The notes under the pieces: generated by a model
What the model was told of the DNA's origin: nothing
What the model saw: the letters and a program-made list of their open reading frames with translations, nothing else
The model's database searches: none
Virus record (IMG/VR): IMGVR_UViG_2898748948_000001
Strand: one strand, 5' to 3'
DNA: 20,000 bases
Source of the DNA: an uncultured virus (IMG/VR IMGVR_UViG_2898748948_000001)
Lineage: Duplodnaviria; Heunggongvirae; Uroviricota; Caudoviricetes
Program-made: the position numbers and the translations under genes
Part shown: piece by piece, positions 1,557-19,113 of the stretch
Layout of the letters: every line of letters starts with the position of its first letter
Numbering within the stretch: the first letter of the stretch is position 1

Positions 1557-2472
1557 CCTCCTTGCTCCGTCGCATCAAGCGCTTGGCTTCCTCGATGGCA
1601 TCGAAGTTCGCGCTGCTCTTGTCGGCTGCCTGCGCAGCCGTCGCCGTCACGGCCAGGCCGCGCGCCCACTGGGTGCGATAGCCCTCGGCCTGGTTGACCA
1701 GCACGCCCATGCCGTGGGAGTTCTTCACAACAAAGGCCTCATTGACGTTCGACACGTACCACGCGGCCACCAGCGGCGCCTCCTCGTGGCCCAAGCGCTT
1801 GACCAGCGCTTTGACGTTGGCATTCACCGGGGCGTTGCGAACGGGCTTAACCCCGTATCGCTGCTCAAACGCGAAGCTGTAGGCCGCCCAAGTCTCCCGG
1901 CAAGCAGTCTGCAGTGCGGTTTCCTCGGTGTTCTCAGGTTGCCCTGCACCACCACGACCCGACTGCAAAGCAGGCGGGGATGGTTCATTGGCGGTTAAGT
2001 GACGGTTCAACTGATGATTTGGGGGCGGCATTTGCCCCTCCAGACCTGCGGCATCTGCCGGGGCTGGGGCGGCATTTGCCGGGGGTACTGCGGCATTTGC
2101 CGGTGGGGCGGCATCTGCACCCGGGGCGGCAGCCGCAGGGGGGGCGGCATTTGCCGCCACATCGGTTTTGCGCTTGGTGGTGCGCTTGCTCTCTGCCGGA
2201 GCCTTGGCAGGGTCAAAGCGCTTGGGGCAGACGGTGTAGCTGGTGCTTGTGTTGTGGCGGTACTCGCGGAACACAGCGCCAGCCGCTTGCAGCCAGGCCA
2301 AGGCATCGCGCACAGCGCGCTCGGACAGGCAGGTACGTGCGGCGATTGTCCCGACCGCAGGCCAGCACACGCCATCGTCGTTCGCTTGATCAGCCAGAGA
2401 AATAAGAACAGCCTTCTGGCTCGGGCTCATGCCCTGCAGGGGCCAGCAGGCCGCCATGATGATCGTGCTCAT
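1543..2472 (-). CDS. Phage replication initiator (O-like, N-terminal winged HTH)
   Basis: N-terminus MSTIIMAACWPLQGMSPSQKAVLISLADQANDDGVCWPAVGTIAARTCLSERAVR is typical of HTH_36 phage initiators; internal iterons; ATGA overlap with the antirepressor stop. Confidence 0.85.
   Translation of the reverse strand: MSTIIMAACWPLQGMSPSQKAVLISLADQANDDGVCWPAVGTIAARTCLSERAVRDALAWLQAAGAVFREYRHNTSTSYTVCPKRFDPAKAPAESKRTTKRKTDVAANAAPPAAAAPGADAAPPANAAVPPANAAPAPADAAGLEGQMPPPNHQLNRHLTANEPSPPALQSGRGGAGQPENTEETALQTACRETWAAYSFAFEQRYGVKPVRNAPVNANVKALVKRLGHEEAPLVAAWYVSNVNEAFVVKNSHGMGVLVNQAEGYRTQWARGLAVTATAAQAADKSSANFDAIEEAKRLMRRSKEGGNA
2025..2155. repeat. Iteron array, putative phage replication origin
   Basis: Seven copies of GCGGCATYTGCC-like 12-mers at 2025, 2048, 2069, 2090, 2108, 2126 and 2144, inside the initiator gene as in lambda ori. 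Confidence 0.8.
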
Positions 2473-3248
2473 GCTGTCACCCCGCCGCTCTGCTTCAGGC
2501 GCACCTGGTGCTGACCCCACAGGCCCGCGATCCACTCCACCCCCTTGGGGGTGAACTTGTAGTGAACGAAGGCGTGTGAAGTTTCGCCGTGCTCTGCTGT
2601 GCCTGTCTTAGCCTCAAAGCGGCCGTTATGCATGTGCTCTGCACGCGGCGTGAGCGGGCTCTTTGGAGTGGTGCGATACATCAGGCCGCGCTTCAGCAGG
2701 AAATCGGTGAACTCGTTCAGCTTGGCGCCAAGGACTTTGCATACCTCACGCACACCCATGCTGCCAGTGCCTGGCTGCACGTAACGGTCCACAAACTCCG
2801 CCTTTGGTGCGGCCAGCGCCAGCGCTTCTTCGGCCTTGATGCGTGCTTGCTCGGACTCAAGGGCCTGTTGCAGCACCTCAAGTTTGCTGAGCTCTCGGGC
2901 TTGGGACCTGGTGCGGAAGTAGATGTTGGTCAGCTGGCGCTGCACGCTCCAGGCCAAGTCATCAGTGAAAGACTTCACCAACATCAGGTAGCCAGGCTCG
3001 GCCAGCAGGATCACATCCTCGCTCGCAAACTTAGAGTGGTTTGGATCGAGGTGACGACGAAATTCGTCGGCGCCTACTTTGAAGTAGTCCTCGCCCTCAA
3101 TGAGGCGGTGCTTGTGCTCGCGAAAGTTTCGACCTGCAGTTCCTTCGGGACGACCGTGGACAGAATCGACTTGTGCCAGCGTGACAACACGCTTGCCCAT
3201 GTATTCGATCACCTGCAAGGAGGTGTTGTTGATGACGATGCTGGACAT
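2469..3248 (-). CDS. Phage antirepressor (ORF6N N-terminal domain + ANT/KilAC C-terminal domain)
   Basis: IEYMGKRVVTLAQVDSVHGRPEGTAGRNF...GYLMLVKSFTDDLAWSVQRQL (ORF6N); APKAEFVDRYV...KFTPKGVEWIA (ANT). Confidence 0.88.
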   Translation of the reverse strand: MSSIVINNTSLQVIEYMGKRVVTLAQVDSVHGRPEGTAGRNFREHKHRLIEGEDYFKVGADEFRRHLDPNHSKFASEDVILLAEPGYLMLVKSFTDDLAWSVQRQLTNIYFRTRSQARELSKLEVLQQALESEQARIKAEEALALAAPKAEFVDRYVQPGTGSMGVREVCKVLGAKLNEFTDFLLKRGLMYRTTPKSPLTPRAEHMHNGRFEAKTGTAEHGETSHAFVHYKFTPKGVEWIAGLWGQHQVRLKQSGGVTA

Positions 3249-3689
3249 TTAGACGCCCCCCATGGATTCGGGGGCCCTAAACGGACCTATGAGCTTGGCA
3301 AGCGCGTCGATACGCTTGTCGTCATGGTTGATCTTTTCCACCACCATTTGCCTGTAGCTCTTGCCGTGCACCAGGACGTAGATGCAGTCGCGCAGCACCC
3401 CTGCCGTGTCCTGGCCGCGCTGGGAGCAGTGCTGCAACCACAGATCATGGGTGAGCTCGTCTATCTTGGTCTTGGCGTCACAGGTCAGCTTGCCCAGAGG
3501 GCCAGCGATGCCGCGCGCAAACATGGGGGCAGGCTCGTCACCAGCCAGATGGGCAATGGCGTGATCCAAGACCTCCTGAGCGTCTTCGGGCTGCAGACCC
3601 TTGAGCGCATCTACTACAGCAGCAAGCGCAGTGTTCTGAGCCTTGGACAGGTGCGGGAGTTGCGTAATGCGTTTGGTGGTGTCAGTCAT
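3249..3689 (-). CDS. Phage regulatory protein in the cII position
   Basis: ATG at 3689 with AAGGAGG RBS, overlapping the cro stop; function from position only. Confidence 0.65.
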   Translation of the reverse strand: MTDTTKRITQLPHLSKAQNTALAAVVDALKGLQPEDAQEVLDHAIAHLAGDEPAPMFARGIAGPLGKLTCDAKTKIDELTHDLWLQHCSQRGQDTAGVLRDCIYVLVHGKSYRQMVVEKINHDDKRIDALAKLIGPFRAPESMGGV

Positions 3690-3903
3690 TGCCCACCTCC
3701 TTGGTCGAAGTGGATGGCTGCGCCAGCTCGTGGCTGGAACACTTTTCTTTCTGCATGCGCCACAAGGCGGCCTGAACGCGGTCAACGATGCGTGCCGGAA
3801 GCACATCAGGCCACTGATTGACAGCTTGGTAGCTCACGCCAATTGCTTTAGCGGCAGCTGGAATAGAGCCGCCCAGTTGTTGAATTGCTTCAGCTTTATT
3901 CAT
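3682..3903 (-). CDS. cro: Cro-like HTH repressor
   Basis: MNKAEAIQQLGGSIPAAAKAIGVSYQAVNQWPDVLP; divergent from cI. Confidence 0.88.
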   Translation of the reverse strand: MNKAEAIQQLGGSIPAAAKAIGVSYQAVNQWPDVLPARIVDRVQAALWRMQKEKCSSHELAQPSTSTKEVGND

Positions 3904-3911
3904 CCTTGGAT

Positions 3912-3980
3912 TGAATCATGATTCACCACAATACGCAATCACAATTCACTTCCGCTCAAGCATATTTCAACCATGATTGA
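3912..3980. promoter_or_regulatory. OR-like operator cluster (three 14-bp sites)
   Basis: TGAATCATGATTCA 3912-3925 (perfect palindrome), GCAATCACAATTCA 3935-3948, TCAACCATGATTGA 3967-3980. Confidence 0.8.
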
Positions 3981-4641
3981 ATACAGCGAGCGACTAAAGG
4001 CCGCCATGGATGAAAGGTCGGTGTCGGTGTCACAGCTTGCCGCCGGCATGGGGGTCAGCTATCAAGCAGTGAAAAGAGCCCTTGACGGCCTGTCAAAAGC
4101 CTTTTCCGCCGCAAACAACACCAAGGCCGCAGCATTTCTGCGCGTGAGCCCAGACTGGCTTGCAACCGGATCTGGCTCTATGGCCGCAAACTTCGATGAA
4201 AACGTCAAACCAACGCCACCAGGCATGCGCGCCTACCCTGTCATCTCAAAGATACAAGCAGGGCTAGTGAAAGAGATCGTGTGCCCATATGAGCCTGGCG
4301 ACGGCTTTGCCGTTGAGTTCGGCGAAGACGATGCCTCTGACTGGGCCTTCTTTTTTGAGATCGAAGGCGACTCAATGCTCCCTGAGTTCCGCCCAGGTGA
4401 CAGGGTTTTGATCGATCCCGAAGTGTCCCCTCGTCCCGGCGACTTTGTTGCCGCACGTAATACGAGACAAGAGGCAACCTTCAAAAAGTACCGAGTGCGT
4501 GGCATCGATGAGGCTGGTCAAGAGATTTTTGAGCTGGTGCCTCTGAATGACGACTACCCCGTGATGCGAAGCGATGAGCACCATCTTGTTGTCATCGGGA
4601 CCATGCTGGAACATCGGCGCAAATTCCGCAGACGGTCATGA
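3973..4641 (+). CDS. cI: CI-like repressor (HTH + S24 autopeptidase)
   Basis: N-terminal HTH, Ala-Gly cleavage site (IQAG), catalytic Ser in GDSM and Lys in TFKK. Confidence 0.93.
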   Translation: MIEYSERLKAAMDERSVSVSQLAAGMGVSYQAVKRALDGLSKAFSAANNTKAAAFLRVSPDWLATGSGSMAANFDENVKPTPPGMRAYPVISKIQAGLVKEIVCPYEPGDGFAVEFGEDDASDWAFFFEIEGDSMLPEFRPGDRVLIDPEVSPRPGDFVAARNTRQEATFKKYRVRGIDEAGQEIFELVPLNDDYPVMRSDEHHLVVIGTMLEHRRKFRRRS

Positions 4642-4712
4642 TGCGCTTCGGCCACCCTCACTAGATACCGCTCCAGCGAATCCCTACGCTCTTGAAGCGA
4701 AGCCTACATCTC

Positions 4713-4734
4713 GCCCGCATAAGCGGGCTTTTTT
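4713..4734 (+). terminator. Intrinsic terminator after cI
   Basis: GCCCGC-ATAA-GCGGGC followed by TTTTTT. Confidence 0.8.
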
Positions 4735-4777
4735 CGTCTGCTGGGTGCATAGCTATGGCCTCTCTCATCGTTCAGAT

Positions 4778-4840
4778 TGAATCTGTATTCACATTAAATT
4801 GAATCAAGATTGACACAAGCGACTGAATCATGATTCAATT
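4778..4840 (+). promoter_or_regulatory. OL-like operators and pL-like promoter
   Basis: TGAATCTGTATTCA 4778-4791, TGAATCAAGATTGA 4800-4813, TGAATCATGATTCA 4824-4837; TTGACA at 4810-4815; -10 hexamer not canonical. Confidence 0.78.
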
Positions 4841-4844
4841 ACTC

Positions 4845-5172
4845 ATCGCAGCAGAAAACCGAAGCGATGGGTGCCAAGTGATCGAGCCAGCACCGAAGCT
4901 CATGCAGCCGCACGGCTGGGTAAACACAAGGCACCGCGGGCGGCAGCGGGATACAAAAGGTCGTCGGTCGCTCTAGTCAGTACTGCTCTGCCCCCGGATG
5001 GGATCGGCAACAGGAACATCGAAAGGCCACGCGAAATCCATCCGCTGGGTTCCATACGGCGGTGAGGCATACAGGGAGGCCGAGAGCAAAAACGCCCAGC
5101 GCGCTAGCGCCGCCACCCGGAGCGCATCCGGGGTTCAAACCAAAGCCTTGCTTGCAGGGCTGCGGTTTGACC
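4845..5172 (+). ncRNA. Putative structured pL leader RNA
   Basis: No credible ORF; nested inverted repeats (GGTGCC/GGCACC, CAGCCG/CGGCTG, TGCTCT/AGAGCA, GGATGG/CCATCC, TCAAACC/GGTTTGA). Confidence 0.45.
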
Positions 5173-5233
5173 ACACAAACAATAGCGAAACTAATAATTT
5201 CCTCAAATTTGATCAAGGTTGAGTTACCATCAA

Positions 5234-5250
5234 CCTATCAAAATGATAGG
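5234..5250. promoter_or_regulatory. Palindromic operator of the TA pair (putative)
   Basis: CCTATCA-AAA-TGATAGG directly upstream of the DUF4258 start. Confidence 0.5.
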
Positions 5251-5259
5251 AACCATCTT

Positions 5260-5565
5260 TTGACAAGCCTGTCAAATCACCAGCTGGAACGCTTCATTCA
5301 AGAGTGTGCGCAAGAGAGCTTTAACGTCATGTTCACCAAGCATGCTCAGCAGCGAATGAGGCAAAGAGGTGTGACACAAATGATGGTCCTCGAGGCTTTG
5401 CGGCTGGGTTGTATGCGTCGCAAGCCTGAGCCCGACATCAAATTCACAGGCCTAAAGTGCCGAATGGAAAGGCTGGTTTCTGGAGTTTTGGTTGGGGTTG
5501 AGGTCTACATAGATCATCCTGCCCCAGATTTGACGGTAGTAACGGTAATTAATTTAGGAGAGTAG
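5260..5565 (+). CDS. DUF4258-family putative toxin (RelE/BrnT-like RNase)
   Basis: FTKHAQQRMRQRGVT...EALRLG...LTVVTVI signature; TTG start inferred. Confidence 0.78.
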   Translation: MTSLSNHQLERFIQECAQESFNVMFTKHAQQRMRQRGVTQMMVLEALRLGCMRRKPEPDIKFTGLKCRMERLVSGVLVGVEVYIDHPAPDLTVVTVINLGE

Positions 5566-5567
5566 TC

Positions 5568-6056
5568 ATGTACCACTATACGGACGGGGGCCTCCGCAAC
5601 GTGTGGTTGGCCAATGGTTACAAGGTTCGCAAAACACCCCATGGAGACGCTGTCGCGATCCACGACATTGAAGGACTGACGGAAACGCTCTGCAAGACAT
5701 TTGTCCAAAAGCCTCGCGCACTGTCTCGCACAGAGTTTCGCTACATTCGCACGTCAGGCCTACTTCTGTCCCAAGCAGCCCTGGGCTCTGCGCTTGGTGT
5801 TGACGCACAAACTGTAGCTCGATGGGAGAAAGACAAACACATCCCCAAGATGGCTGACAAGATGATCCGTCTGATCTACTTGGAGCATGCCAACGGCAAT
5901 GTGCGCCTCAAGAGTGCATTTGAGACTTTGCGCGCTGTGGAGAGGGCTATGAATGGCCCTCAGCCCACCCGAGTCGTCGTGGAATCCAAAGGGGAGCACT
6001 GGGAGTCGCGCCTTGAAGAAGGCGACGAGTTAAACGAAGAAATGGAACCAGCCTAA
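5568..6056 (+). CDS. XRE-HTH putative antitoxin (MqsA/HigA-like)
   Basis: MYHYTDGGLRNVWLANGY N-terminus and HTH LSQAALGSALGVDAQTVARWE; AGGAG RBS; 2 nt after the toxin stop. Confidence 0.82.
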   Translation: MYHYTDGGLRNVWLANGYKVRKTPHGDAVAIHDIEGLTETLCKTFVQKPRALSRTEFRYIRTSGLLLSQAALGSALGVDAQTVARWEKDKHIPKMADKMIRLIYLEHANGNVRLKSAFETLRAVERAMNGPQPTRVVVESKGEHWESRLEEGDELNEEMEPA

Positions 6057-6074
6057 ATGCTGGCCCACCAAAAC

Positions 6075-6127
6075 AACCCGCCCAGTGCGGGTTTTCTTTT
6101 ACCAGCCACCCAGGAGGTGGCATTTTT
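6075..6127 (+). terminator. Tandem intrinsic terminators after the TA pair
   Basis: AACCCGC-CCAGT-GCGGGTTTTCTTTT and GCCACC-CAGGA-GGTGGC-ATTTTT. Confidence 0.7.
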
Positions 6128-6191
6128 GTACCTGGAGATTCTGAATTCTGAAATGTGAGCTACCCGCCAGCATGCGGCCCGCATGCGCCTT

Positions 6192-6746
6192 CCCCGCAGG
6201 GCTTTAGCGGGGCCATCACGCAGGTGGACTGGACACGGTTCGACTCCGTGGGCTACACCGATGCGCCTTGCGCGCTAAGTCTAGGCGGCCCAGTCCACCG
6301 CCGTGATGGTGCCGGGGGTCGGCTCCCCGGTTATTACAAACCAGGCCTGCAAGGCCCGGCTGGAATACTGCAAGAGGGTAATCGCACCGGTCTTAGGTGC
6401 CCATCATGAACACCCCGGGAAAGTAGCGGGGGCTATCACAGATAGGGAATGCGCAGGCTGATGCGCGATCAGGAGCAAGCCGGAGATCAGCACCGGCCCC
6501 TATCTGTGATGGTGAATGCGCAGTTGCGATGCGCACTGGCGGGTTGTGGCCCACAAAACCATATAGGTCCCGATATGAGTCACGAGCCGGACAAGCAACC
6601 GGCCGCCATCACGACTTGCCGGCGTAAGCGGCAGCTATCTGGCGTGACTGCTCGAGCAGGTACGGCAGTTCAGGAATGGGCCTGAGCTACCGTCAATTAG
6701 GAACTCGGCGCTTTGCGCCGTGGCGACAGTGGTCACGCCAGATGGC
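6192..6746 (+). ncRNA. Array of structured RNA modules (putative ncRNAs)
   Basis: Long closing stems 6213-6309, 6433-6512, 6506-6612 and 6635-6746; T-loop-like arm at 6234-6250; two copies of a kissing-loop motif. Confidence 0.6.
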
Positions 6747-6910
6747 GCAGCAACTTTTATTAACCCAAGTGCGCATTTCTTCTGCCTGACCCTCATCGGG
6801 CAGTGGAACGCTGCGTCATCTACCTTTTTGCCGGGCCTGGGGCCTATCTCCTCCCTCCCTCTCTGAACCATTCCCTAGGCAGACCCGAAAGGTCACCGGC
6901 TCTTTATTCA

Positions 6911-6943
6911 AGCCCGCAGCAACCGCTCGCGGGCTTTTTCTTT
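6911..6943 (+). terminator. Intrinsic terminator
   Basis: AGCCCGC...GCGGGCT-TTTTCTTT. Confidence 0.7.
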
Positions 6944-7913: not shown

Positions 7914-8849
7914 ATGTTCAAGAACATGATCATTTACCGCATTGCCGAAAGCTGGCAAAGCGATCTGCAGGCGCTGGAGGATGCCCTGCAAAAGACAGTG
8001 TTTGAGGAGTGCGGCGCGACCCAGGAGCGCTCCGTGGGCTGGGTGCCGCCGCGCGGAGAGCAGCACGGCCTGCTGGTCGAATCCGTGGCTGGTCAGTGGG
8101 TCATGCGCTTCATGACCGAGGCCAAGGTGCTGCCGGCCAGCGTGCTCAATCGCAAGGTCAACGAAAAGGCCGAGCACATCGAAAAAACCGAAGGCCGCAA
8201 GCCGGGCAAGAAGGAAAAGCGCGACCTCAAGGACGAGGCCAAGCTGGATCTGCTGCCCATGGCCTTCACCAAGCAAGGCAGCATGTGGGTCTGGATCGAT
8301 CCTCAGGCCCGCACCTTGGTTCTGGACACCAGCGCCCAGGGCCGCGCCGACGAGGTGGTGACCCTGCTAGTCGAAGGCCTGCCCGGCTTATCTCTGGCCC
8401 TGCTGGACACCCAGACCAGCCCACAGGCCGCCATGGCGCATTGGCTGATGACACAGGAGCCGCCCACCGGCTTCACCGCCGACCGCGAGACGGAGCTGAA
8501 AGCATGCGACGAGTCCAAGGCCATCGTGCGCTATGCCCGCCACCCGTTGGACATCGATGAGGTCCGCAAACACATCGAGCACGGCAAGCTGCCGACCAAG
8601 CTGGCGATGACCTGGGACGACCGTGTGAGCTTTGTGCTGACCGAAGGCCTGCAGATCAAGAGCATTACGCTGCTGGATGCGGTCATGGATGGCAACAGCC
8701 AGGACGATGGCGGCTTCGATACCGATGTGGCCATTGCCACCGGTGAGCTGTCGCGCCTGATTCCCGACCTGATCGAAGCCCTTGGCGGAGAAGGCCGCAC
8801 AGGCCTGGGCGACCTGCCCGCCACGCTGGCTGCCAGCGCAAGCTGGTAA
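7914..8849 (+). CDS. rdgC: Recombination-associated protein RdgC (phage copy)
   Basis: MFKNMIIYRI, GWVPPRG, EAKVLPASV, LLPMAF, GKLPTKLAMTWDDRVSFVLTE motifs. Confidence 0.93.
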   Translation: MFKNMIIYRIAESWQSDLQALEDALQKTVFEECGATQERSVGWVPPRGEQHGLLVESVAGQWVMRFMTEAKVLPASVLNRKVNEKAEHIEKTEGRKPGKKEKRDLKDEAKLDLLPMAFTKQGSMWVWIDPQARTLVLDTSAQGRADEVVTLLVEGLPGLSLALLDTQTSPQAAMAHWLMTQEPPTGFTADRETELKACDESKAIVRYARHPLDIDEVRKHIEHGKLPTKLAMTWDDRVSFVLTEGLQIKSITLLDAVMDGNSQDDGGFDTDVAIATGELSRLIPDLIEALGGEGRTGLGDLPATLAASASW

Positions 8850-9619: not shown

Positions 9620-9888
9620 GTTATCAAAAATCTGATCTGCACACAGTGTCACCCGCGAAGACAGGGCTACACATTTGGAACGATTTTTATTCGTGCAACT
9701 GAGGCCGTTTTTGATGACTTTTGGCAGCTTTTGTGCACGGAACAAGAGTTCGGCTGACAGCAATCTATCAGCCTGCGGCGGTGTAATAATTTGTGACAAA
9801 AGCGAAAATACGAGCATCGAGATTCCAGATCGCCGTTTAACGCTCAGGGTTGAAATGATTGCTCTTTGATCGGGGAGGCTCTGGTCAG

Positions 9889-11109
9889 ATGTCCGCGAAT
9901 TACAACTTGTTGGTACTGACACCACCTCTGGCGCTACTGGTTCTTGCTGCCGTCCTGATGGTTGCTTGGTTTAACCAACGATCCCAGCGCTTTCTGTTTT
10001 GGCAAGCCTGCGCCTATTCGCTCACGGCACTGCCCCTCGCTGCTCAAACCTTGATTCCCCTTGAGGTGCTCACGCGCTATGCGCTATTGATTGGCAGCAT
10101 CTATCTGCTGGGAGCCTGGTGTCTTGCGAAGTGCTGGGCGGACAGGTGGCGTGTATCAACGCATCCGCACATTGCACTGCAGATCTCCATCGTCACCTTA
10201 GCCGTTGTGTATCACTTCAGCTGGGTGAATCCGATTCCTTGGGTTCGCATCTGTTCCTTCAGTATAGGCTCGGGCTTGGTTCTAATGCTGCCTATCCTGC
10301 AGGTCCGCTCAAGGATGAGCTCTTTACACTGGCTCGATAAATTGCTGCTCTGGCTAAGCATCGCATTCACTACCTATACCTTCACTCGGCCCGGTTTGAT
10401 CTGGCTGCTGGGCTACTCGGATCTTCGGTCATTGCCAAAGTCGCCCTACTGGCTCCTAACGCTGGTGAGCATCTTGAACTTCGCGCTGCTCTTCAGCTTG
10501 GTGATGACTGCTATTGCCGCGAAGGAAACGGTAGACAAGCTACGACGTGAGCGAGACCTTGATGCGTTGACCCAGTTGCTGAATCGCCGCTCTTTTCAAG
10601 AATATGCCCAGCAGCGCCTCGCTGACATACGGCTCTATCCGATGGCCGTGCTGGCCTGCGATATAGATCACTTCAAGCGCATTAACGACTCCTGGGGCCA
10701 CAAGCGCGGCGATGAGGTTCTGCAACTGGTTTCAACGACTCTTAAAGACAGCGTGCGGGAGAACGACCTTGTCGCACGGTTCGGCGGGGAAGAGTTTGTG
10801 CTTTTGCTGACGGAAATTTCACTGAAAGATGCCGAGGCCATTGCCCTTCGCATCCAGCGCGACCTCCGCTTGAACAATGAAGTTCTCCCATCAGGCTACA
10901 CGTTGACCCTGAGCTTCGGGATTTCAGCGCTCGACAGCAACACGCCATTAGATCAAGCCCTGCGAGAGGCCGATCGGCTTCTTTACGAAGCCAAAAATGC
11001 TGGGCGAGATCGGGTGCACGTATCCGGGGGCAACTATCCGGATATATCCATCGAACTCGATCCCGTTGCAAACCCAAGCTACCACATGCCCTACAGCAAA
11101 AGCACATAG
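9889..11109 (+). CDS. Membrane-bound GGDEF diguanylate cyclase
   Basis: Multi-TM N-terminus; DALTQLLNRR, DIDHFKRINDSWGHKRGDEVL, RxxD I-site (REND), GGEEF active site, LYEAKNAGRDR. Confidence 0.93.
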   Translation: MSANYNLLVLTPPLALLVLAAVLMVAWFNQRSQRFLFWQACAYSLTALPLAAQTLIPLEVLTRYALLIGSIYLLGAWCLAKCWADRWRVSTHPHIALQISIVTLAVVYHFSWVNPIPWVRICSFSIGSGLVLMLPILQVRSRMSSLHWLDKLLLWLSIAFTTYTFTRPGLIWLLGYSDLRSLPKSPYWLLTLVSILNFALLFSLVMTAIAAKETVDKLRRERDLDALTQLLNRRSFQEYAQQRLADIRLYPMAVLACDIDHFKRINDSWGHKRGDEVLQLVSTTLKDSVRENDLVARFGGEEFVLLLTEISLKDAEAIALRIQRDLRLNNEVLPSGYTLTLSFGISALDSNTPLDQALREADRLLYEAKNAGRDRVHVSGGNYPDISIELDPVANPSYHMPYSKST

Positions 11110-13251: not shown

Positions 13252-13506
13252 ATGAAACATTCAGATACACAAGCTGCAAACCATGCCGCCAATGATGAGT
13301 CCGTCAATGCACCCGAGTGGGTGCTGGCCTCCAAGTTTGAGGAACTCACCGGGGTGACACGAGAGACCGTCAAACAACGCAAGAAGGCTGGCACCTGGCG
13401 CGAGGGAGCCCAGGTCGCAGTCGTTCACCGCCGCCTCTACGTCAACATCAAAGCAGCCGATCAATGGATAAAAGACCACCTACCCAAGCAACACCGCCCG
13501 GCGTGA
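13252..13506 (+). CDS. xis: Excisionase (putative)
   Basis: Basic winged-helix-like EWVLASKFEELTGVTRETVKQRKKAGTW...LYVNIKAADQWI; overlaps the int start. Confidence 0.8.
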   Translation: MKHSDTQAANHAANDESVNAPEWVLASKFEELTGVTRETVKQRKKAGTWREGAQVAVVHRRLYVNIKAADQWIKDHLPKQHRPA

Positions 13507-14648
13507 AGATTCGCCATCTCGTCTCAGGCGACAGGCTGCAAATTGCCTTCACCTGGGAGGGCCAGGAGTGCCGCGAGCTGCTCCCAGCCTGTGCAATCAA
13601 CAAGAGCAGCATTCAGCGCGCGGCCTCATTGCGCGACGAGATCCGCCGCAAGATTGCCGAAGGCGGCTTCTCCTATGCCGATTACTTCCCGGACAGCCCA
13701 AGGGCTGCAGCCCCGTCACAAAGCAACCCGCTCATGGAAACGCTGCTGCAAAAGCAGCTGGACACCTATGCCCGCCAGGTCAAGAACGGGCAAATGTCCC
13801 CATCCACCTACAACGGTTACGCCAAGGCCATCACAGGCGAGCGCATGCGCCGTTGGCATGGGCTGAAGGTGGGCGAGGTATTGCCCAGTCTGCTGCGTGA
13901 CTGGGTTTCAGAAATGGACTGCACCAGCAAGGCCATACGGAACATGCTCACCCCGCTGCGCAGCTTGTTTGAGGATGCGCTCAATGATGAGCTGATCGAC
14001 TTCAATCCCTTCGAGCGCATCGCTCTATCCAAGCTCATTCGGCAAACGGCAAAGGCCAGCGACTATGTGGTGACGCCGTTCAGCGCGGCTGAGCGCGAGA
14101 CCATCCTCAAGGCCTGCCGCCCCGACGAAAGGCCCATGCTCCAGTTTTGGTTTGAGACGGGCCTGCGCCCAGGCGAGCTGCAAGCGTTGCAGTGGAGCCA
14201 CATCGATTGGGAGCGGTCCGTTGCCCGGATAGAGCTCAATCAGGTCGCAGGCGTGATCAAAGGGCCCAAGACAGCCGCCGGCATCCGAGATGTGGAGCTA
14301 TCCGCCGAGGCGCTCGCGGCGCTGCACGCCCAGCGCCCTATTTCCGAGCTCAAGGGCGAGCGCATCTGGCTCAACCCCCGCACGGGCGAGCCATGGAGCA
14401 CAGACGCCCAGATCCGCAAGACGCTCTGGCAGCCGGTCTGCAAACGCGCCGAGGTGGAGTATCGGAATCCCTATCAGGTCCGCCACACCTATGCCTCAGC
14501 CTTGCTGACGGCCGGCGCCAATCCATGGTACGTGGCAAGCCAGTTGGGGCATGAGGACGTGGAGATGGTTTTTCGCACCTATGGCAAATTCATCAGGGAC
14601 GACTACCAGAAGCCCAAGCCTGAATTTCGCATTGTGAAAGAAAAATGA
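13464..14648 (+). CDS. int: Prophage tyrosine integrase with arm-binding N-terminal domain
   Basis: TGLRPGE, GPKT, YQVRHT, LGH and TYG catalytic motifs. Confidence 0.95.
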   Translation: MDKRPPTQATPPGVKIRHLVSGDRLQIAFTWEGQECRELLPACAINKSSIQRAASLRDEIRRKIAEGGFSYADYFPDSPRAAAPSQSNPLMETLLQKQLDTYARQVKNGQMSPSTYNGYAKAITGERMRRWHGLKVGEVLPSLLRDWVSEMDCTSKAIRNMLTPLRSLFEDALNDELIDFNPFERIALSKLIRQTAKASDYVVTPFSAAERETILKACRPDERPMLQFWFETGLRPGELQALQWSHIDWERSVARIELNQVAGVIKGPKTAAGIRDVELSAEALAALHAQRPISELKGERIWLNPRTGEPWSTDAQIRKTLWQPVCKRAEVEYRNPYQVRHTYASALLTAGANPWYVASQLGHEDVEMVFRTYGKFIRDDYQKPKPEFRIVKEK

Positions 14649-17283: not shown

Positions 17284-17841
17284 GCACCGCACCTTCAAAC
17301 CTCAAAGCGATGTCGATGTCCACCAGCAACTCGACGGAGGAAGCGCACGCCTGTTTGCGGCACGTGTGGAGTTACGGATGCCATGGAGGCTGCCTAGAGG
17401 TGCAACAGCCATATGGCGGGCTGCACTTGGCTTATTACCAGGCTGAATCTTTGCTCTTGAGCATGCTGAGCGTCTGGGTAGCTGCACTCCGGATCGCAGA
17501 AGTCAGACTCAAATCCCCATAGCGTTTGCGCCCGGAACACCAACATAGGCGTGTTCCGCGGTTTCCACCATCGAGGCTTGTGCGACACCTGCCCTCAGGC
17601 AGGGTTGATCGTCGCGTGGGGGTGTCGTTCCGGGCAGGTATCCCACAACCCTAAACTGATTGAGTCGTTCGCGCTTCAGGCCTTAGGCGACCGCTCCTGC
17701 CAAGAGCAGCCGTTGAGCCCCGCTGGCCTAACCGACAGCTAGTCGTTCCAGTCCAATGTCGTGGGCCGACGAGCAACAATAGTTAGGATCGACTTGCGTA
17801 CATGTAGAGTCGCGACCACTACATTCAAGGGAGGCACGAAG

Positions 17842-19113
17842 ATGGATAACCTATTTGCCAATCGGACGGTGCACAGGGACTTCCTGATCAACGAACTTAC
17901 TCGGCGAGATGTTCAGGGTTGTGACGTCTTCATTGCCGTAGCGTTCTTCACTGAAACCAATGTTGTCCAAAAACTTCTAGACCACGGCTGCAAGGTTTGG
18001 CTGGTGGTAAGGCTGGGCTTTCCGACCTGTCCTGCTGCTGTCGAGTGGGCGATGAGCCACCCGAATGTCCAACTTCGCGTCTATACGGCGCGTTCATTCC
18101 ATCCAAAACTCTATCTTTTCGGCGATAACAAGGCGTTGGTGGGGTCGGCCAACCTAACAAGAGCGGCCATCACAGCGAATCAAGAAATCGTAGTGGGACT
18201 TGACGATAGTGACGAACGTTTGCCTGAGCTCGCAGCGATATTCCAAGACTACTGGGAAAGCGCTGACGTTCCCACAGGCGAAATGTTGGCACAGTACAGG
18301 ATGTTGTACCGCAAGTACGAGCAGCACAGCAACGCTGCAGAATTGCTTGCTGACGAGGTTGCAGAGTTGCTCGGCAAGACCGCACCGAACAACATCGCCC
18401 GCGGACAGCCAAAGCCCAGGTCCGATTCTCTCTTTCGTTCAAGCTTTCGAAAGTCCTACCAAGAGTGCGTGTCGGCATTCAGCATTGTGCGAGATGCATA
18501 CGCAGCGAGCGGCTATAGGAAGGTCAGCGAGCAGGACGTTCCACTCCGTCTTGAGGTTGACTCCTTCATGAGTTTCATTCGGCAAAAACACGCCACCGGG
18601 GAGTCTTGGCAGCAGTCCCCCTACCGAACCGTCGAGGAGCAGCGAACCATCTTGCGACCACTCATTGACGAGTGGTCATCTATACCATGGCCTTACTTCG
18701 AGAACACCATCGTCGGCGAGACCTATCCACGCCTGCAGCGCGTATTCAAGTCAAAGGAGACAATTCTCGCGGCCTCGGACGATGACCTGTTTGACGCCCT
18801 ATCCACTCTGCACAGTTTCGGCGACCGCCTCCGCTTCTATCGCGGCGGGAAAGAAACTTGGAGAGATGAGTTCATCAATAGCAACGACCCCGAACGCGCC
18901 AGAGAGGCGCTTGCGCATTTGGTGTTCGGGCGTGGGGACGTAGTAGACAGGATGGCTGATGCTGTCAATGGCGACGGCAAGATTAAGGCTTTCGGTAAGG
19001 CCAACGTTCAGGAACTCATCGGCTGGTGCAACAAGGAAGAACTCCCCATCCTTAATAGCCGAACGACAAAAGTGCTGCGCTACTTGGGATCCAGAGTTCG
19101 ACAGATCCACTGA
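17842..19113 (+). CDS. PLD-superfamily (NgoFVII/BfiI-like) nuclease with C-terminal helical domain; putative defence protein
   Basis: GGGAGG RBS; IAVAFFT, HPKLYLF, VGSANLT..AITANQE PLD-nuclease motifs. Confidence 0.8.
   Translation: MDNLFANRTVHRDFLINELTRRDVQGCDVFIAVAFFTETNVVQKLLDHGCKVWLVVRLGFPTCPAAVEWAMSHPNVQLRVYTARSFHPKLYLFGDNKALVGSANLTRAAITANQEIVVGLDDSDERLPELAAIFQDYWESADVPTGEMLAQYRMLYRKYEQHSNAAELLADEVAELLGKTAPNNIARGQPKPRSDSLFRSSFRKSYQECVSAFSIVRDAYAASGYRKVSEQDVPLRLEVDSFMSFIRQKHATGESWQQSPYRTVEEQRTILRPLIDEWSSIPWPYFENTIVGETYPRLQRVFKSKETILAASDDDLFDALSTLHSFGDRLRFYRGGKETWRDEFINSNDPERAREALAHLVFGRGDVVDRMADAVNGDGKIKAFGKANVQELIGWCNKEELPILNSRTTKVLRYLGSRVRQIH

What the first reader, a model, noticed from the sequence alone, without database searches (positions are those of the whole stretch)
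6192..6746. Modular ncRNA array: small hairpin plus long CYATC...GATGG stem, repeated with different cargo
Seen: three times a 5-6 bp hairpin ending TAGCGG/TAAGCGG (6192-6212, 6413-6431, 6617-6633) is followed directly by a long stem opening CCATC/CTATC and closing GATGG (6213-6309, 6433-6512, 6635-6746). Each stem encloses a different structured insert: a tRNA T-arm-like CACGG-TTCGACT-CCGTG, the kissing-loop motif, or two hairpins. The region lies between terminators and has no ORF with a convincing RBS. Inference: a polycistronic phage RNA cassette processed (e.g. by RNase III or RNase P) into separate small RNAs. Possible roles are anti-defence decoys, C4-like antisense RNAs or antitermination signals.
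Basis: partly seen in the sequence, partly recalled or inferred. Interest (0 to 1): 0.75.

Follow-up and report, generated by a model that had tools for sequence, protein, structure and literature searches.

The report
Swappable RNA cassette array in prophage
A gene-free stretch of a virus hiding in a Comamonas bacterium is a chain of folded RNA modules that related viruses gain, lose and swap whole, most likely cut apart by a host enzyme into several small RNAs, some shaped like transfer RNA, whose jobs are not yet known.

Summary
In detail: three hairpin + CYATC...GATGG stems at the stated coordinates (none elsewhere in the window; at most one in 4 of 5000 shuffles). The tract lies in the early-left (PL) operon of a Comamonas lambdoid prophage. 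Related prophages keep the boxes but replace, delete or insert whole cargoes at them. The same design, with RNase III cuts mapped in vivo, flanks DicF (Qin) and KilS (Rac) in E. coli K-12, and a kissing-loop member (sRNA-17) is a detected RNA. So processing by RNase III is likely but inferred by homology; no RNA ends were seen here. The kissing-loop scaffold is widespread in phages, covaries strongly, carries about 80 unrelated inserts, has no fixed partner gene and no Rfam match in the window (nearest relative STnc100). C4 antisense and nut/put readings are not supported; the decoy role is untested. This scan found the same architecture before on other DNA. Verdict: new variant of a known kind; interest 0.58.

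The parts
3973..4641 (+). cI-like repressor (context); cro at 3682-3903 on the minus strand
   Evidence: Pfam Peptidase_S24 + HTH_3; P22_Cro
4778..4845 (+). PL-like promoter with operator palindromes (4778, 4800, 4824; the same 14-mer at 3912 near PR); start site about 4845
   Evidence: -35 and extended -10 read from the sequence; palindromes; a template-switch adapter sits directly before 4845 in one contig of run X1 (weak: one run, contigs)
5062..6121 (+). DUF4258 + HTH gene pair (toxin-antitoxin-like insert) and two terminator-like hairpins that separate the PL leader from the array in this prophage
   Evidence: Pfam, terminator scan; in 4 of 64 element-A copies (duplicates included) the leader hairpin runs straight into element A
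6131..6157 (+). Shine-Dalgarno + ATG-TGA start-stop; here the spacing is stretched by a 7-nt duplication
   Evidence: GGAG-(6-8 nt)-ATGTGA in 26 of 45 pattern hits, 37 of which are true element-A copies by eye
6166..6212 (+).
   Evidence: first stem possible in 21 of 21 distinct copies, one with a two-sided change; the search pattern fixed most of the second stem
6212..6310 (+). Module 1: long stem CCATCAC...GTGATGG enclosing a T-arm cargo; predicted RNase III cuts after 6221 and before 6303 (alternative 2 nt outward)
   Evidence: fold; cargo replaced by unrelated cargoes in kin; register by homology to Qin R1, inferred
6303..6411 (+). Element B (not in the finding): tRNA-shaped cloverleaf, 7-bp closing stem GTGATGG/CCATCAT, 8-bp hairpin, middle hairpin, invariant ACTGCAAGAGG, 5-bp T-like stem with 7-nt loop; its 5' strand is the closing strand of module 1
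   Evidence: fold; 21 sequences: 94.4% of cells paired, 8 of 30 pairs with two-sided change, 0 of 500 shuffles reach this (related sequences, so not a probability)
6413..6431 (+). Foot hairpin 2
   Evidence: CCCCG/CGGGG to CCTCG/CGAGG in L024, L030
6432..6513 (+). Module 2: 15-16 bp stem enclosing kissing-loop RNA KL1 (hairpins 6451-6466 and 6479-6497, loops GCTGAT/ATCAGC, 12-nt insert)
   Evidence: same stem with another foot hairpin and another insert in L561; fused to hairpin 1 in run X5
6506..6612 (+). KL2 (not separated in the finding): second kissing-loop RNA, 9-bp closing stem GTGATGGTG/CGCCATCAC that overlaps the closing strand of module 2; loops TTGC/GCAA
   Evidence: fold; 9 metagenome loci of this type, 7 of them behind a GCCATC...GATG stem with unrelated cargo
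6617..6633 (+). Foot hairpin 3
   Evidence: found before module 3 in 7 of 171 loci
6634..6746 (+). Module 3 (element X): 18-20 bp stem, three-way junction, inner hairpin with invariant GAAT..GCC
   Evidence: 60 of 171 Comamonadaceae loci, often 2-3 copies (loci overlap); 28 consensus pairs, 5 with two-sided change, many C-G/U-G exchanges
6740..6821 (+). Element D: 12-bp closing stem starting in the closing strand of module 3
   Evidence: 11 of 12 pairs in D-type kin, only a short CCATC remnant or nothing in others
6830..6943 (+). Element Z: junction with a C/U-rich anti-Shine-Dalgarno-like loop, then an intrinsic terminator; candidate base-pairing sRNA at the position DicF/KilS-type sRNAs take
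   Evidence: fold; 53 of 171 loci; only sub-threshold Rfam hits (RF02278 21.8 bits vs 50; ar14 16 vs 58.8)
7914..8849 (+). rdgC, anchor of the early-left operon that runs on to xis and int (13252-14648)
   Evidence: Pfam RdgC, Phage_integrase, PHROG excisionase; closest RdgC relatives 92-93% in Comamonas testosteroni/thiooxydans group genomes

Best explanation
A cut-and-refold RNA array in the repressor-controlled early-left transcript. (1) The tract is transcribed on the + strand from PL or from a promoter inside the insert upstream (start at 4845 weakly shown; read-through of the two terminators at 6075-6121 inferred). (2) Each foot hairpin stacks end-to-end on the long stem behind it and so lengthens the helix beside the CYATC/GATGG box; host RNase III cuts both strands 7-9 bp from the base (inferred from same-design stems with mapped cuts). 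(3) The cuts release the inner cargoes (T-arm RNA, KL1, X) and free the GTGATGG strand, which re-pairs downstream to close the next RNA (cloverleaf B, KL2, D); Z ends at the terminator. One transcript gives about seven small, end-protected RNAs. (4) B, KL1 and KL2 copy the top half and elbow of tRNA (7-9 bp stem stacked on a 5-bp arm, loop-loop contact) and carry a freely exchangeable middle arm; I think they act in trans on host RNA-binding machinery, with Z as a conventional base-pairing sRNA (inferred; no target shown). (5) The 7-13 nt boxes double as recombination points, so prophages shuffle modules like cassettes (shown by junctions in kin; the recombination route is inferred).
For: Modularity: L001 is 100% identical over 4600-6437 and resumes at 6627, lacking module 2 and KL2; run X9 has the same joint, run X5 joins hairpin 1 to module 2; 29 distinct sequences behind hairpin 1 fall into 14 clusters (at least 8 unrelated cargo types by eye), 10 of 14 representatives closing with GATGG. 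Mapped cuts in homologous design: Qin, 5-bp helix + A + CCATAAC...GTTGTGG cut at 1649182/1649251, and the kissing-loop-type stem 3' of DicF cut at 1649454/1649584; Rac, 6-bp helix abutting a stem cut 5 bp from its base at 1418556/1418485 (PMC6212723 supplement; sequences). The 190-nt DicF precursor needs RNase III (10.1101/2023.04.14.536235). sRNA-17, a 193-nt RNA found by RACE and Northern, is a KL member whose 5' end falls at the same GTTGTGG position behind a hairpin + stem (PMC7719688; the end is my inference from their alignment and length). Structure selection: KL closing pairs 1-7 are paired in 94-98 of 100 distinct elements against partner-shuffled means of 43-76 for pairs 2-7; kissing loops change on both sides together; B covaries. 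Overlap with an upstream stem: 29 of 178 KL elements at 17+ of 18 pairs against 4 of 534 controls; foot hairpin in 25 of 70 against a mean of 7.8, and in 12 of 22 contexts of X against 2.2. Invariant unpaired residues in B, X and KL exceed what a cut site needs. No fixed neighbour gene: 75 first downstream ORFs include 9 holins, 4 N-like, 4 RecT-like, 3 terminases, 21 without a PHROG hit.
Against: No RNA end from this locus was observed; all runs were contigs. The exact register is open by 2 nt (Qin R1 and R3 give different registers for the CATC box). 10 of 22 X contexts and 45 of 70 KL contexts lack a detected foot hairpin, and at the looser 15-pair cut-off the overlap is only 70 of 178 against 118 of 534. 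Re-pairing of D fails in about half of the kin. The predicted Rac cut at 1418391 was not detected in vivo. Comamonas RNase III specificity is unknown. No target or partner was found for any cargo. Deleting sRNA-17 raised the downstream yfdP about 95-fold, which points to a cis effect of its terminator.
Confidence: 0.62

Rival explanations
1. Cis-only processing leader: the stems are cut, but the pieces are by-products; the array serves to partition, stabilise or shield the long untranslated early transcript and to tune downstream genes.
For: KL elements sit in leaders of many operon types (N-like, holin, RecT, terminase); in Qin and Rac the last cut lies just ahead of the dicB and kilR ribosome-binding sites; sRNA-17 deletion strongly raises the downstream gene; inserts are hypervariable (83 families among 106 elements).
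Against: Loop sequences, the kissing contact, the invariant 11-mer of B and the inner loop of X are conserved although a cut site needs only a stem; DicF and sRNA-17 accumulate as discrete RNAs; in L570 a KL follows a sigma-70-like promoter directly (by eye).
Confidence: 0.2
2. RNase P (or RNase P after RNase III) is the main cutter, reading B and the KL RNAs as pre-tRNAs.
For: B has a 7-bp stem on a 5-bp arm with a 7-nt loop; KL conservation drops after pair 7-8; KL elements lie among tRNA genes in P1 and 10 of 60 loci had a tRNA call within 1.2 kb; T-loop motifs lie on the same strand within 500 nt in 17 of 73 loci, on the other strand in 0.
Against: No CCA enrichment at the tRNA position (at most 11 of 106 at any offset); the mapped cuts in Qin and Rac are RNase III dependent; the 5' strands are buried in long stems until these are cut.
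Confidence: 0.08
3. RNA antitermination signal (put- or nut-like) that lets polymerase pass downstream terminators in a phage with no evident N gene.
For: No N-like hit among the ORFs between PL and rdgC; several terminators downstream; a U-rich run before the last terminator recalls boxA (recalled resemblance, not tested).
Against: The tract lies 1.3 kb from the start site behind two terminators; no second copy near the rightward promoters in the nearest record G001 (84% complete); modules are freely deleted or doubled in kin; cleavage would detach it from polymerase.
Confidence: 0.05
4. C4/CI-type antisense RNAs that pair with targets in the same operon.
For: tRNA-like shape and phage early-operon location are shared with C4 and CI RNAs (recalled).
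Against: No RF01695 match at E <= 10; longest complements of the cargoes elsewhere in the window are 10-11 nt, the chance level; the antirepressor-like gene lies in the other operon.
Confidence: 0.03
5. DNA-level mobile cassettes (MITE- or attC-like) whose inverted ends are recombination sites.
For: Precise gain and loss at the boxes; the minus strand folds as well as the plus strand (z -5.65).
Against: Frequent C-G/U-G and G-C/G-U exchanges keep pairing only on the + strand as RNA; one orientation in all operons; loop-loop covariation; no target duplication beyond the box itself.
Confidence: 0.02

Closest known systems
dicBF intercistronic region of prophage Qin, E. coli K-12 (DicF, RF00039; PMC6212723; 10.1101/2023.04.14.536235)
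   Same: Long non-coding tract in a lambdoid early-left operon; helix abutting a CCATAAC...GTTGTGG stem with mapped RNase III cuts; the cut strand opens the next RNA; a kissing-loop-type scaffold cut out as a 130-nt piece.
   Different: No DicF sequence here; three such stems instead of two; other cargoes; Betaproteobacterial host; module swapping is not described in the passages I read.
sieB-kilR region of prophage Rac, E. coli K-12 (sRNA KilS, b4833)
   Same: 6-bp helix directly on a stem cut 5 bp from its base, an sRNA, then a scaffold of the same type.
   Different: Different sRNA and inserts; only one of the two predicted cuts of the last stem was detected.
sRNA-17 of E. coli K1 RS218 (mEp460-like prophage; PMC7719688)
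   Same: Contains the exact 19-mer and second hairpin of KL1; detected by RACE and Northern; homolog L221 lies behind hairpin + stem.
   Different: Authors describe a stand-alone promoter-driven sRNA, not a scaffold family or a processed product; it has its own terminator and another insert.
Rfam STnc100 (RF02076)
   Same: Model consensus has the same skeleton: closing stem, AAU, hairpin, variable middle, 5-bp hairpin, closing strand.
   Different: Other loop sequences; matches Qin and P1 variants below its gathering score (34 vs 47 bits) and does not match the window even at E <= 10.
Phage P1 dmt-tciA tract and T4 rnaC/rnaD
   Same: P1 alternates stems with three KL-type elements beside its tRNA genes, unannotated; T4 keeps two stable non-tRNA species in its tRNA cluster.
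   Different: P1 copies are unstudied in what I could search; T4 rnaC/rnaD lack the KL motifs by inspection.

Membership tests
RNase III-processed ncRNA tract of lambdoid early-left operons (dicBF type) | Lies in the repressor-controlled leftward operon of a lambdoid prophage | tested here: met
   cI/cro, PL-like promoter with operators, rdgC, xis, int
RNase III-processed ncRNA tract of lambdoid early-left operons (dicBF type) | Long non-coding stretch with stems of the design that RNase III cuts in Qin/Rac | tested here: met
   same helix + box + overlap design
RNase III-processed ncRNA tract of lambdoid early-left operons (dicBF type) | RNase III-dependent ends in vivo | not testable with these tools
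   only contigs available
DicF (RF00039) | Sequence/structure match to the family model | tested here: not met
   no hit in the window; the model finds the Qin copy at 76.7 bits
STnc100 (RF02076) | Score at or above the gathering threshold | tested here: not met
   no hit at E <= 10
STnc100 (RF02076) | Skeleton: closing stem + AAU + hairpin ... 5-bp hairpin + closing strand | tested here: met
   model consensus compared by eye with KL1/KL2
C4 antisense RNA (RF01695) | Match to the family model | tested here: not met
C4 antisense RNA (RF01695) | Complementary target sites flanking the RNA in the same transcript (feature recalled) | tested here: not met
   longest complements 10-11 nt, chance level
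C4 antisense RNA (RF01695) | Upstream of an antirepressor gene (feature recalled) | tested here: not met
   the ORF6N/KilAC gene is at 2469-3248 in the opposite operon
tRNA (RF00005) | Cloverleaf with anticodon arm, canonical D/T loops and CCA | tested here: not met
   ARAGORN 0 genes; no RF00005 hit; only the top-half geometry is shared
nut/put antitermination sites | Promoter-proximal and present in both early operons (feature recalled) | tested here: not met
   1.3 kb from 4845; one locus only in G001, 84% complete
nut/put antitermination sites | Raises terminator read-through | not testable with these tools
   needs a reporter assay
Betaproteobacteria toxic sRNA (RF02278), for element Z | Score at or above the gathering threshold | tested here: not met
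   21.8 bits vs 50, E 0.075

The most novel reading that the evidence does not exclude
Phages of the Proteobacteria run a general RNA cassette system: host RNase III cuts a leader into interchangeable tRNA-shaped RNAs whose middle arm is a rapidly replaced payload, a natural tRNA scaffold, and these RNAs act as decoys or inhibitors of host machines that read the tRNA elbow (for example tRNA-cleaving defence nucleases), making the array an RNA counterpart of anti-defence gene islands.
Probability: 0.2. Interest if true: 0.87.

Novelty: new variant of a known kind. Interest (0 to 1): 0.58.

Why it matters
DicF has been treated as a one-off prophage sRNA. The comparison shows that its surroundings follow a reusable grammar (foot hairpin, boxed stem, overlapping start of the next RNA) that a distant Betaproteobacterial prophage fills with quite different RNAs. 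That gives exact, testable RNA ends and a list of uncatalogued RNAs. The kissing-loop scaffold alone occurs in phage P1, many lambdoid prophages and lytic phages (193 GenBank phage records matched one enterobacterial copy or its flanks) and two E. coli K-12 prophages carry variants, so its function can be tested at once in laboratory strains. If the RNAs prove to be decoys, this is a large unrecognised class of phage RNA effectors; if cis-acting, it is still a missing layer of early-operon control.

Tried and rejected
Rfam on the window at E <= 1 and on the tract at E <= 10: only sub-threshold hits. ARAGORN: nothing. The window's own assembly is not held; the nearest virus record G001 gave the same locus only. 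A generic scan for GCYATS...SATRRY stems was too loose (658 hits, both strands alike) and is not used. One search had a pattern bug, picked the second hairpin partly by the closing stem (circular; redone), one search counted both strands of a palindromic stem and one search had a loop-length bug (redone); the hairpin test still undercounts. The four KL1 matches among the 171 loci are a chance antisense match in one coding region. A 14-of-15-nt complement between the KL2 insert and the terminator at 6073-6087 looked like trans-antitermination but other KL2-type elements carry other inserts and 10-nt exact matches are the chance level: rejected. ORF coverage of KL elements was uninformative (36 of 73 under an open frame of 100+ codons). 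Depth steps in run X1 (about 830 over 4894-5493, 7.6 over 5889-6249, 83 from 6230 on) are per-contig means and cannot show ends or levels: not used as support. The promoter filter printed no site. A pattern scan for module 3 in viral contigs returned mostly chance matches. Anticodon-loop reading of the invariant 11-mer of B: no conserved flanking stem. T4 rnaC/rnaD: no KL motifs. The 3025 of 5426 E. coli genomes match an 801-nt query that includes part of yfdP, so the number is not a KL count (1172 cover 80% or more). Literature: ten searches found no description of the scaffold family, of STnc100 among the listed papers, or of cassette swapping; the exact 16-mer is in 0 main texts yet is in a supplement of PMC7719688, so supplements can hide more. 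Three of nine supplementary files of PMC10690425 (10,000 candidate phage RNAs) could not be searched and may hold these motifs; bioRxiv supplements and subscription papers such as Faubladier 1990 were not seen.

Full report
SETTING. The window is part of a lambdoid prophage: replication and antirepressor-like genes and cro on the minus strand, cI at 3973-4641, then a plus-strand operon running through a DUF4258/HTH pair, the flagged tract, two small ORFs, a BLUF gene, rdgC, lar, xis and int. RdgC relatives at 92-93% identity lie in Comamonas testosteroni/thiooxydans group genomes. A PL-like promoter with operator palindromes ends at about 4845; one contig of run X1 carries a template-switch adapter right before 4845, a weak sign that this start is used. 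The gene pair and two terminator-like hairpins stand between the promoter and the array; in 4 of 64 copies of the first array element the PL leader runs straight into it, so the pair is an insert.

THE OBSERVATION. The three hairpin + stem units are at the stated coordinates. A pattern written after the fact finds exactly these three in the whole window; 4 of 5000 shuffles give one, none two. Folding is better than chance for the tract (z -4.6) and 6601-6750 is the best of 133 tiles of 150 nt, though two tiles inside the tract are ordinary. The minus strand folds as well, so energy does not give the strand; the promoter, the operon direction and the many C-G/U-G exchanges in kin do. Rfam and ARAGORN find nothing above threshold.

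MODULARITY IN KIN. Of 60 rdgC-anchored viral loci, L001 is 100% identical over 4600-6437 and continues at 6627: module 2, KL2 and hairpin 3 are missing, with the joint inside the shared hairpin-end + GCTATC box. Over 171 Comamonadaceae loci (overlapping sets, so duplicates are included) 67 carry array parts, in the order A - slot 1 - B - hairpin 2 - X - D - Z - terminator; X is in 60, Z in 53, B in 40, the window's module-1 cargo in 10, hairpin 3 in 7. Behind hairpin 1, 29 distinct sequences form 14 clusters, at least 8 unrelated cargo types by eye; 10 of the 14 representatives close with GATGG, and others hold X directly or a protein gene. Contigs of public runs show hairpin 1 fused to module 2 (X5) and the L001-type joint (X9). 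Genome G005 has module 2 with another foot hairpin and another insert. 43 of 77 genomes of the genus match some part of the tract.

The strand that closes each long stem is also the first strand of the next folded RNA. From 6303 the sequence folds as a cloverleaf, B, with a 7-bp closing stem and a 5-bp arm with a 7-nt loop; in 21 aligned copies 94.4% of cells pair, 8 of 30 pairs change on both sides and 0 of 500 shuffles reach this, with the caveat that the rows are related. From 6506 a second kissing-loop RNA, KL2, closes with 9 bp. From 6740 element D closes with 12 bp; this holds in D-type kin but has decayed in about half of the others. Hairpin 1 is probably half of a pseudoknot (21 of 21 distinct copies allow the first stem), and most kin have a Shine-Dalgarno + ATG-TGA start-stop ahead of it.

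THE KISSING-LOOP SCAFFOLD IS A WIDESPREAD FAMILY. In 100 distinct elements located by sequence alone (122 hits, 12 without the 3' motif, the rest duplicates), closing pairs 1-7 are paired in 94-98, against partner-shuffled means of 43-76 for pairs 2-7; pairing falls to background by pair 9-10. The two loops change together in several variants. Inserts run from a few to over 150 nt and form 83 families among 106 elements (selection partly circular). 29 of 178 elements overlap an upstream stem at 17+ of 18 pairs (4 of 534 controls), and 25 of 70 such stems at the looser cut-off have an abutting hairpin (control mean 7.8); for X, 12 of 22 contexts (control 2.2; 0 of 21 on the 3' side). Seven of 9 metagenome loci of the KL2 type (6 distinct) repeat the window's GCCATC...GATG stem with unrelated cargo. 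The next gene downstream is not fixed, so a phage-encoded partner protein is unlikely (inference). Copies sit beside the tRNA genes of phage P1 and in many GenBank phages.

LINK TO MAPPED RNASE III SITES. The dicBF region of E. coli K-12 prophage Qin has the same design. In the supplement of PMC6212723 (seen: abstract, section 25 part 1, passages, supplement rows) RNase III cuts at 1649182/1649251, in a stem opening CCATAAC and closing GTTGTGG that stands directly behind a 5-bp helix, and at 1649454/1649584, cutting out a scaffold-type element. Prophage Rac repeats this, with a cut only 5 bp from the base of a stem that abuts a 6-bp helix, then the annotated sRNA KilS. The 190-nt DicF precursor needs RNase III (10.1101/2023.04.14.536235, passages). 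One proximal + distal box set is enough to specify a cut (PMC1540722, passages); cleavage of coaxially stacked helices is the title of Franch et al. 1999, seen only in a reference list. I infer that the foot hairpin supplies the outer part of the substrate. Transferring the Qin R1 register gives cuts after 6221, 6441, 6643 and before 6303, 6506, 6739; the R3 register, which fits the invariant CYATC followed by two free pairs, puts them 2 nt further out. sRNA-17 of E. coli K1 (PMC7719688; passages, primer rows and part 1 of supplement 7) is a KL member detected by RACE and Northern; its 193 nt fit a start at GTTGTGG in homolog L221, behind a hairpin + stem, which favours the R1 register, though the authors assign it a promoter. 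Rfam STnc100 has the same skeleton and scores the Qin and P1 variants below threshold. Lambda's early-left sRNA LPR1 (10.1101/2024.10.31.621285, passages) shows that such operons yield host-targeting sRNAs. For C4 I saw only its table row in PMC2864571; its defining features are recalled.

MECHANISM AND ODDS. Shown: the structure, its conservation, module exchange at the boxes, and the identity of design with cut sites mapped elsewhere. Inferred: transcription through the insert, cleavage at this locus, refolding, and action in trans. I put processing into discrete RNAs by RNase III at about 0.75 and the full reading, with at least some products acting in trans, at 0.62; cis-only 0.2; RNase P as main cutter 0.08; antitermination 0.05; C4-like 0.03; DNA cassette 0.02. 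The conserved unpaired residues argue that the cargoes are more than spacers, but no target was found. A tRNA-elbow decoy is the boldest reading that the data allow (0.2).

NOVELTY. The kind is known (dicBF). The grammar, the overlap-and-refold design, elements A, B, X, D and the scaffold as a family were not found in ten literature searches or in Rfam 15, with the gap that three supplement files of PMC10690425 could not be searched. Earlier notes of this scan describe the same architecture on other DNA; they are not counted as support. The labels X and Z and the term foot hairpin are taken from them; A, B, D and KL are mine. Score 0.58.

Noticed in passing
window:4845-5172: The PL leader is itself structured (z -2.2; tile 5101-5250 z -5.2) and parts are conserved in kin; probably the front end of the same array, split off by the gene-pair insert.
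   Followed up: partly
window:6131-6157: Conserved Shine-Dalgarno + ATG-TGA start-stop ahead of the pseudoknot; a 7-nt duplication here stretches the spacing to 15 nt; a few kin have a short ORF instead. Could be a ribosome-loading stabiliser.
   Followed up: partly
window:5062-6056: DUF4258 + HTH pair, toxin-antitoxin-like, inserted in a variable slot between the leader and the array; well covered in run X1 contigs.
   Followed up: no
window:3912-3925, 4778-4837: Palindromic 14-bp operator, perfect at 3912 and 4824, with 2-3 mismatches at 3967, 4778, 4800.
   Followed up: partly
window:7409-7816 and 9859-11109: A stand-alone BLUF (blue-light sensor) gene and a membrane GGDEF diguanylate cyclase gene sit as inserts in the early-left operon.
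   Followed up: no
window:6961-7342: Two small hydrophobic ORFs follow the array in most kin; no Pfam or PHROG hit. The first holds a 77% direct repeat of the 3' strand of module 3.
   Followed up: no
window:15163-17283 and 17761-19113: Beyond the prophage integrase: an integrase + IS91-type transposase pair, and a PLD-domain protein with a restriction-enzyme-like N terminus, a possible defence gene.
   Followed up: no
L332:600-2330 (phage P1, dmt to tciA): 1.7 kb unannotated tract with hairpins shared with the Qin dicF region, a weak permuted-tmRNA hit (26.3 bits), two tRNAs and three scaffold elements.
   Followed up: partly
L568 (Rac, NC_000913.3 1418230-1418680): The Rac sieB-kilR gap is a close structural twin of the Qin dicF-dicB gap, with KilS in the place of DicF.
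   Followed up: yes
L005, L007, L009, L011, L014, L016: X, Z and the terminator occur two or three times along the same operon, interleaved with small genes, so the repeats may drive gene shuffling in the early region.
   Followed up: partly
window:6893-6912: U-rich run between Z and its terminator resembles a boxA or an Hfq site (recalled resemblance); conserved in Comamonas kin.
   Followed up: no
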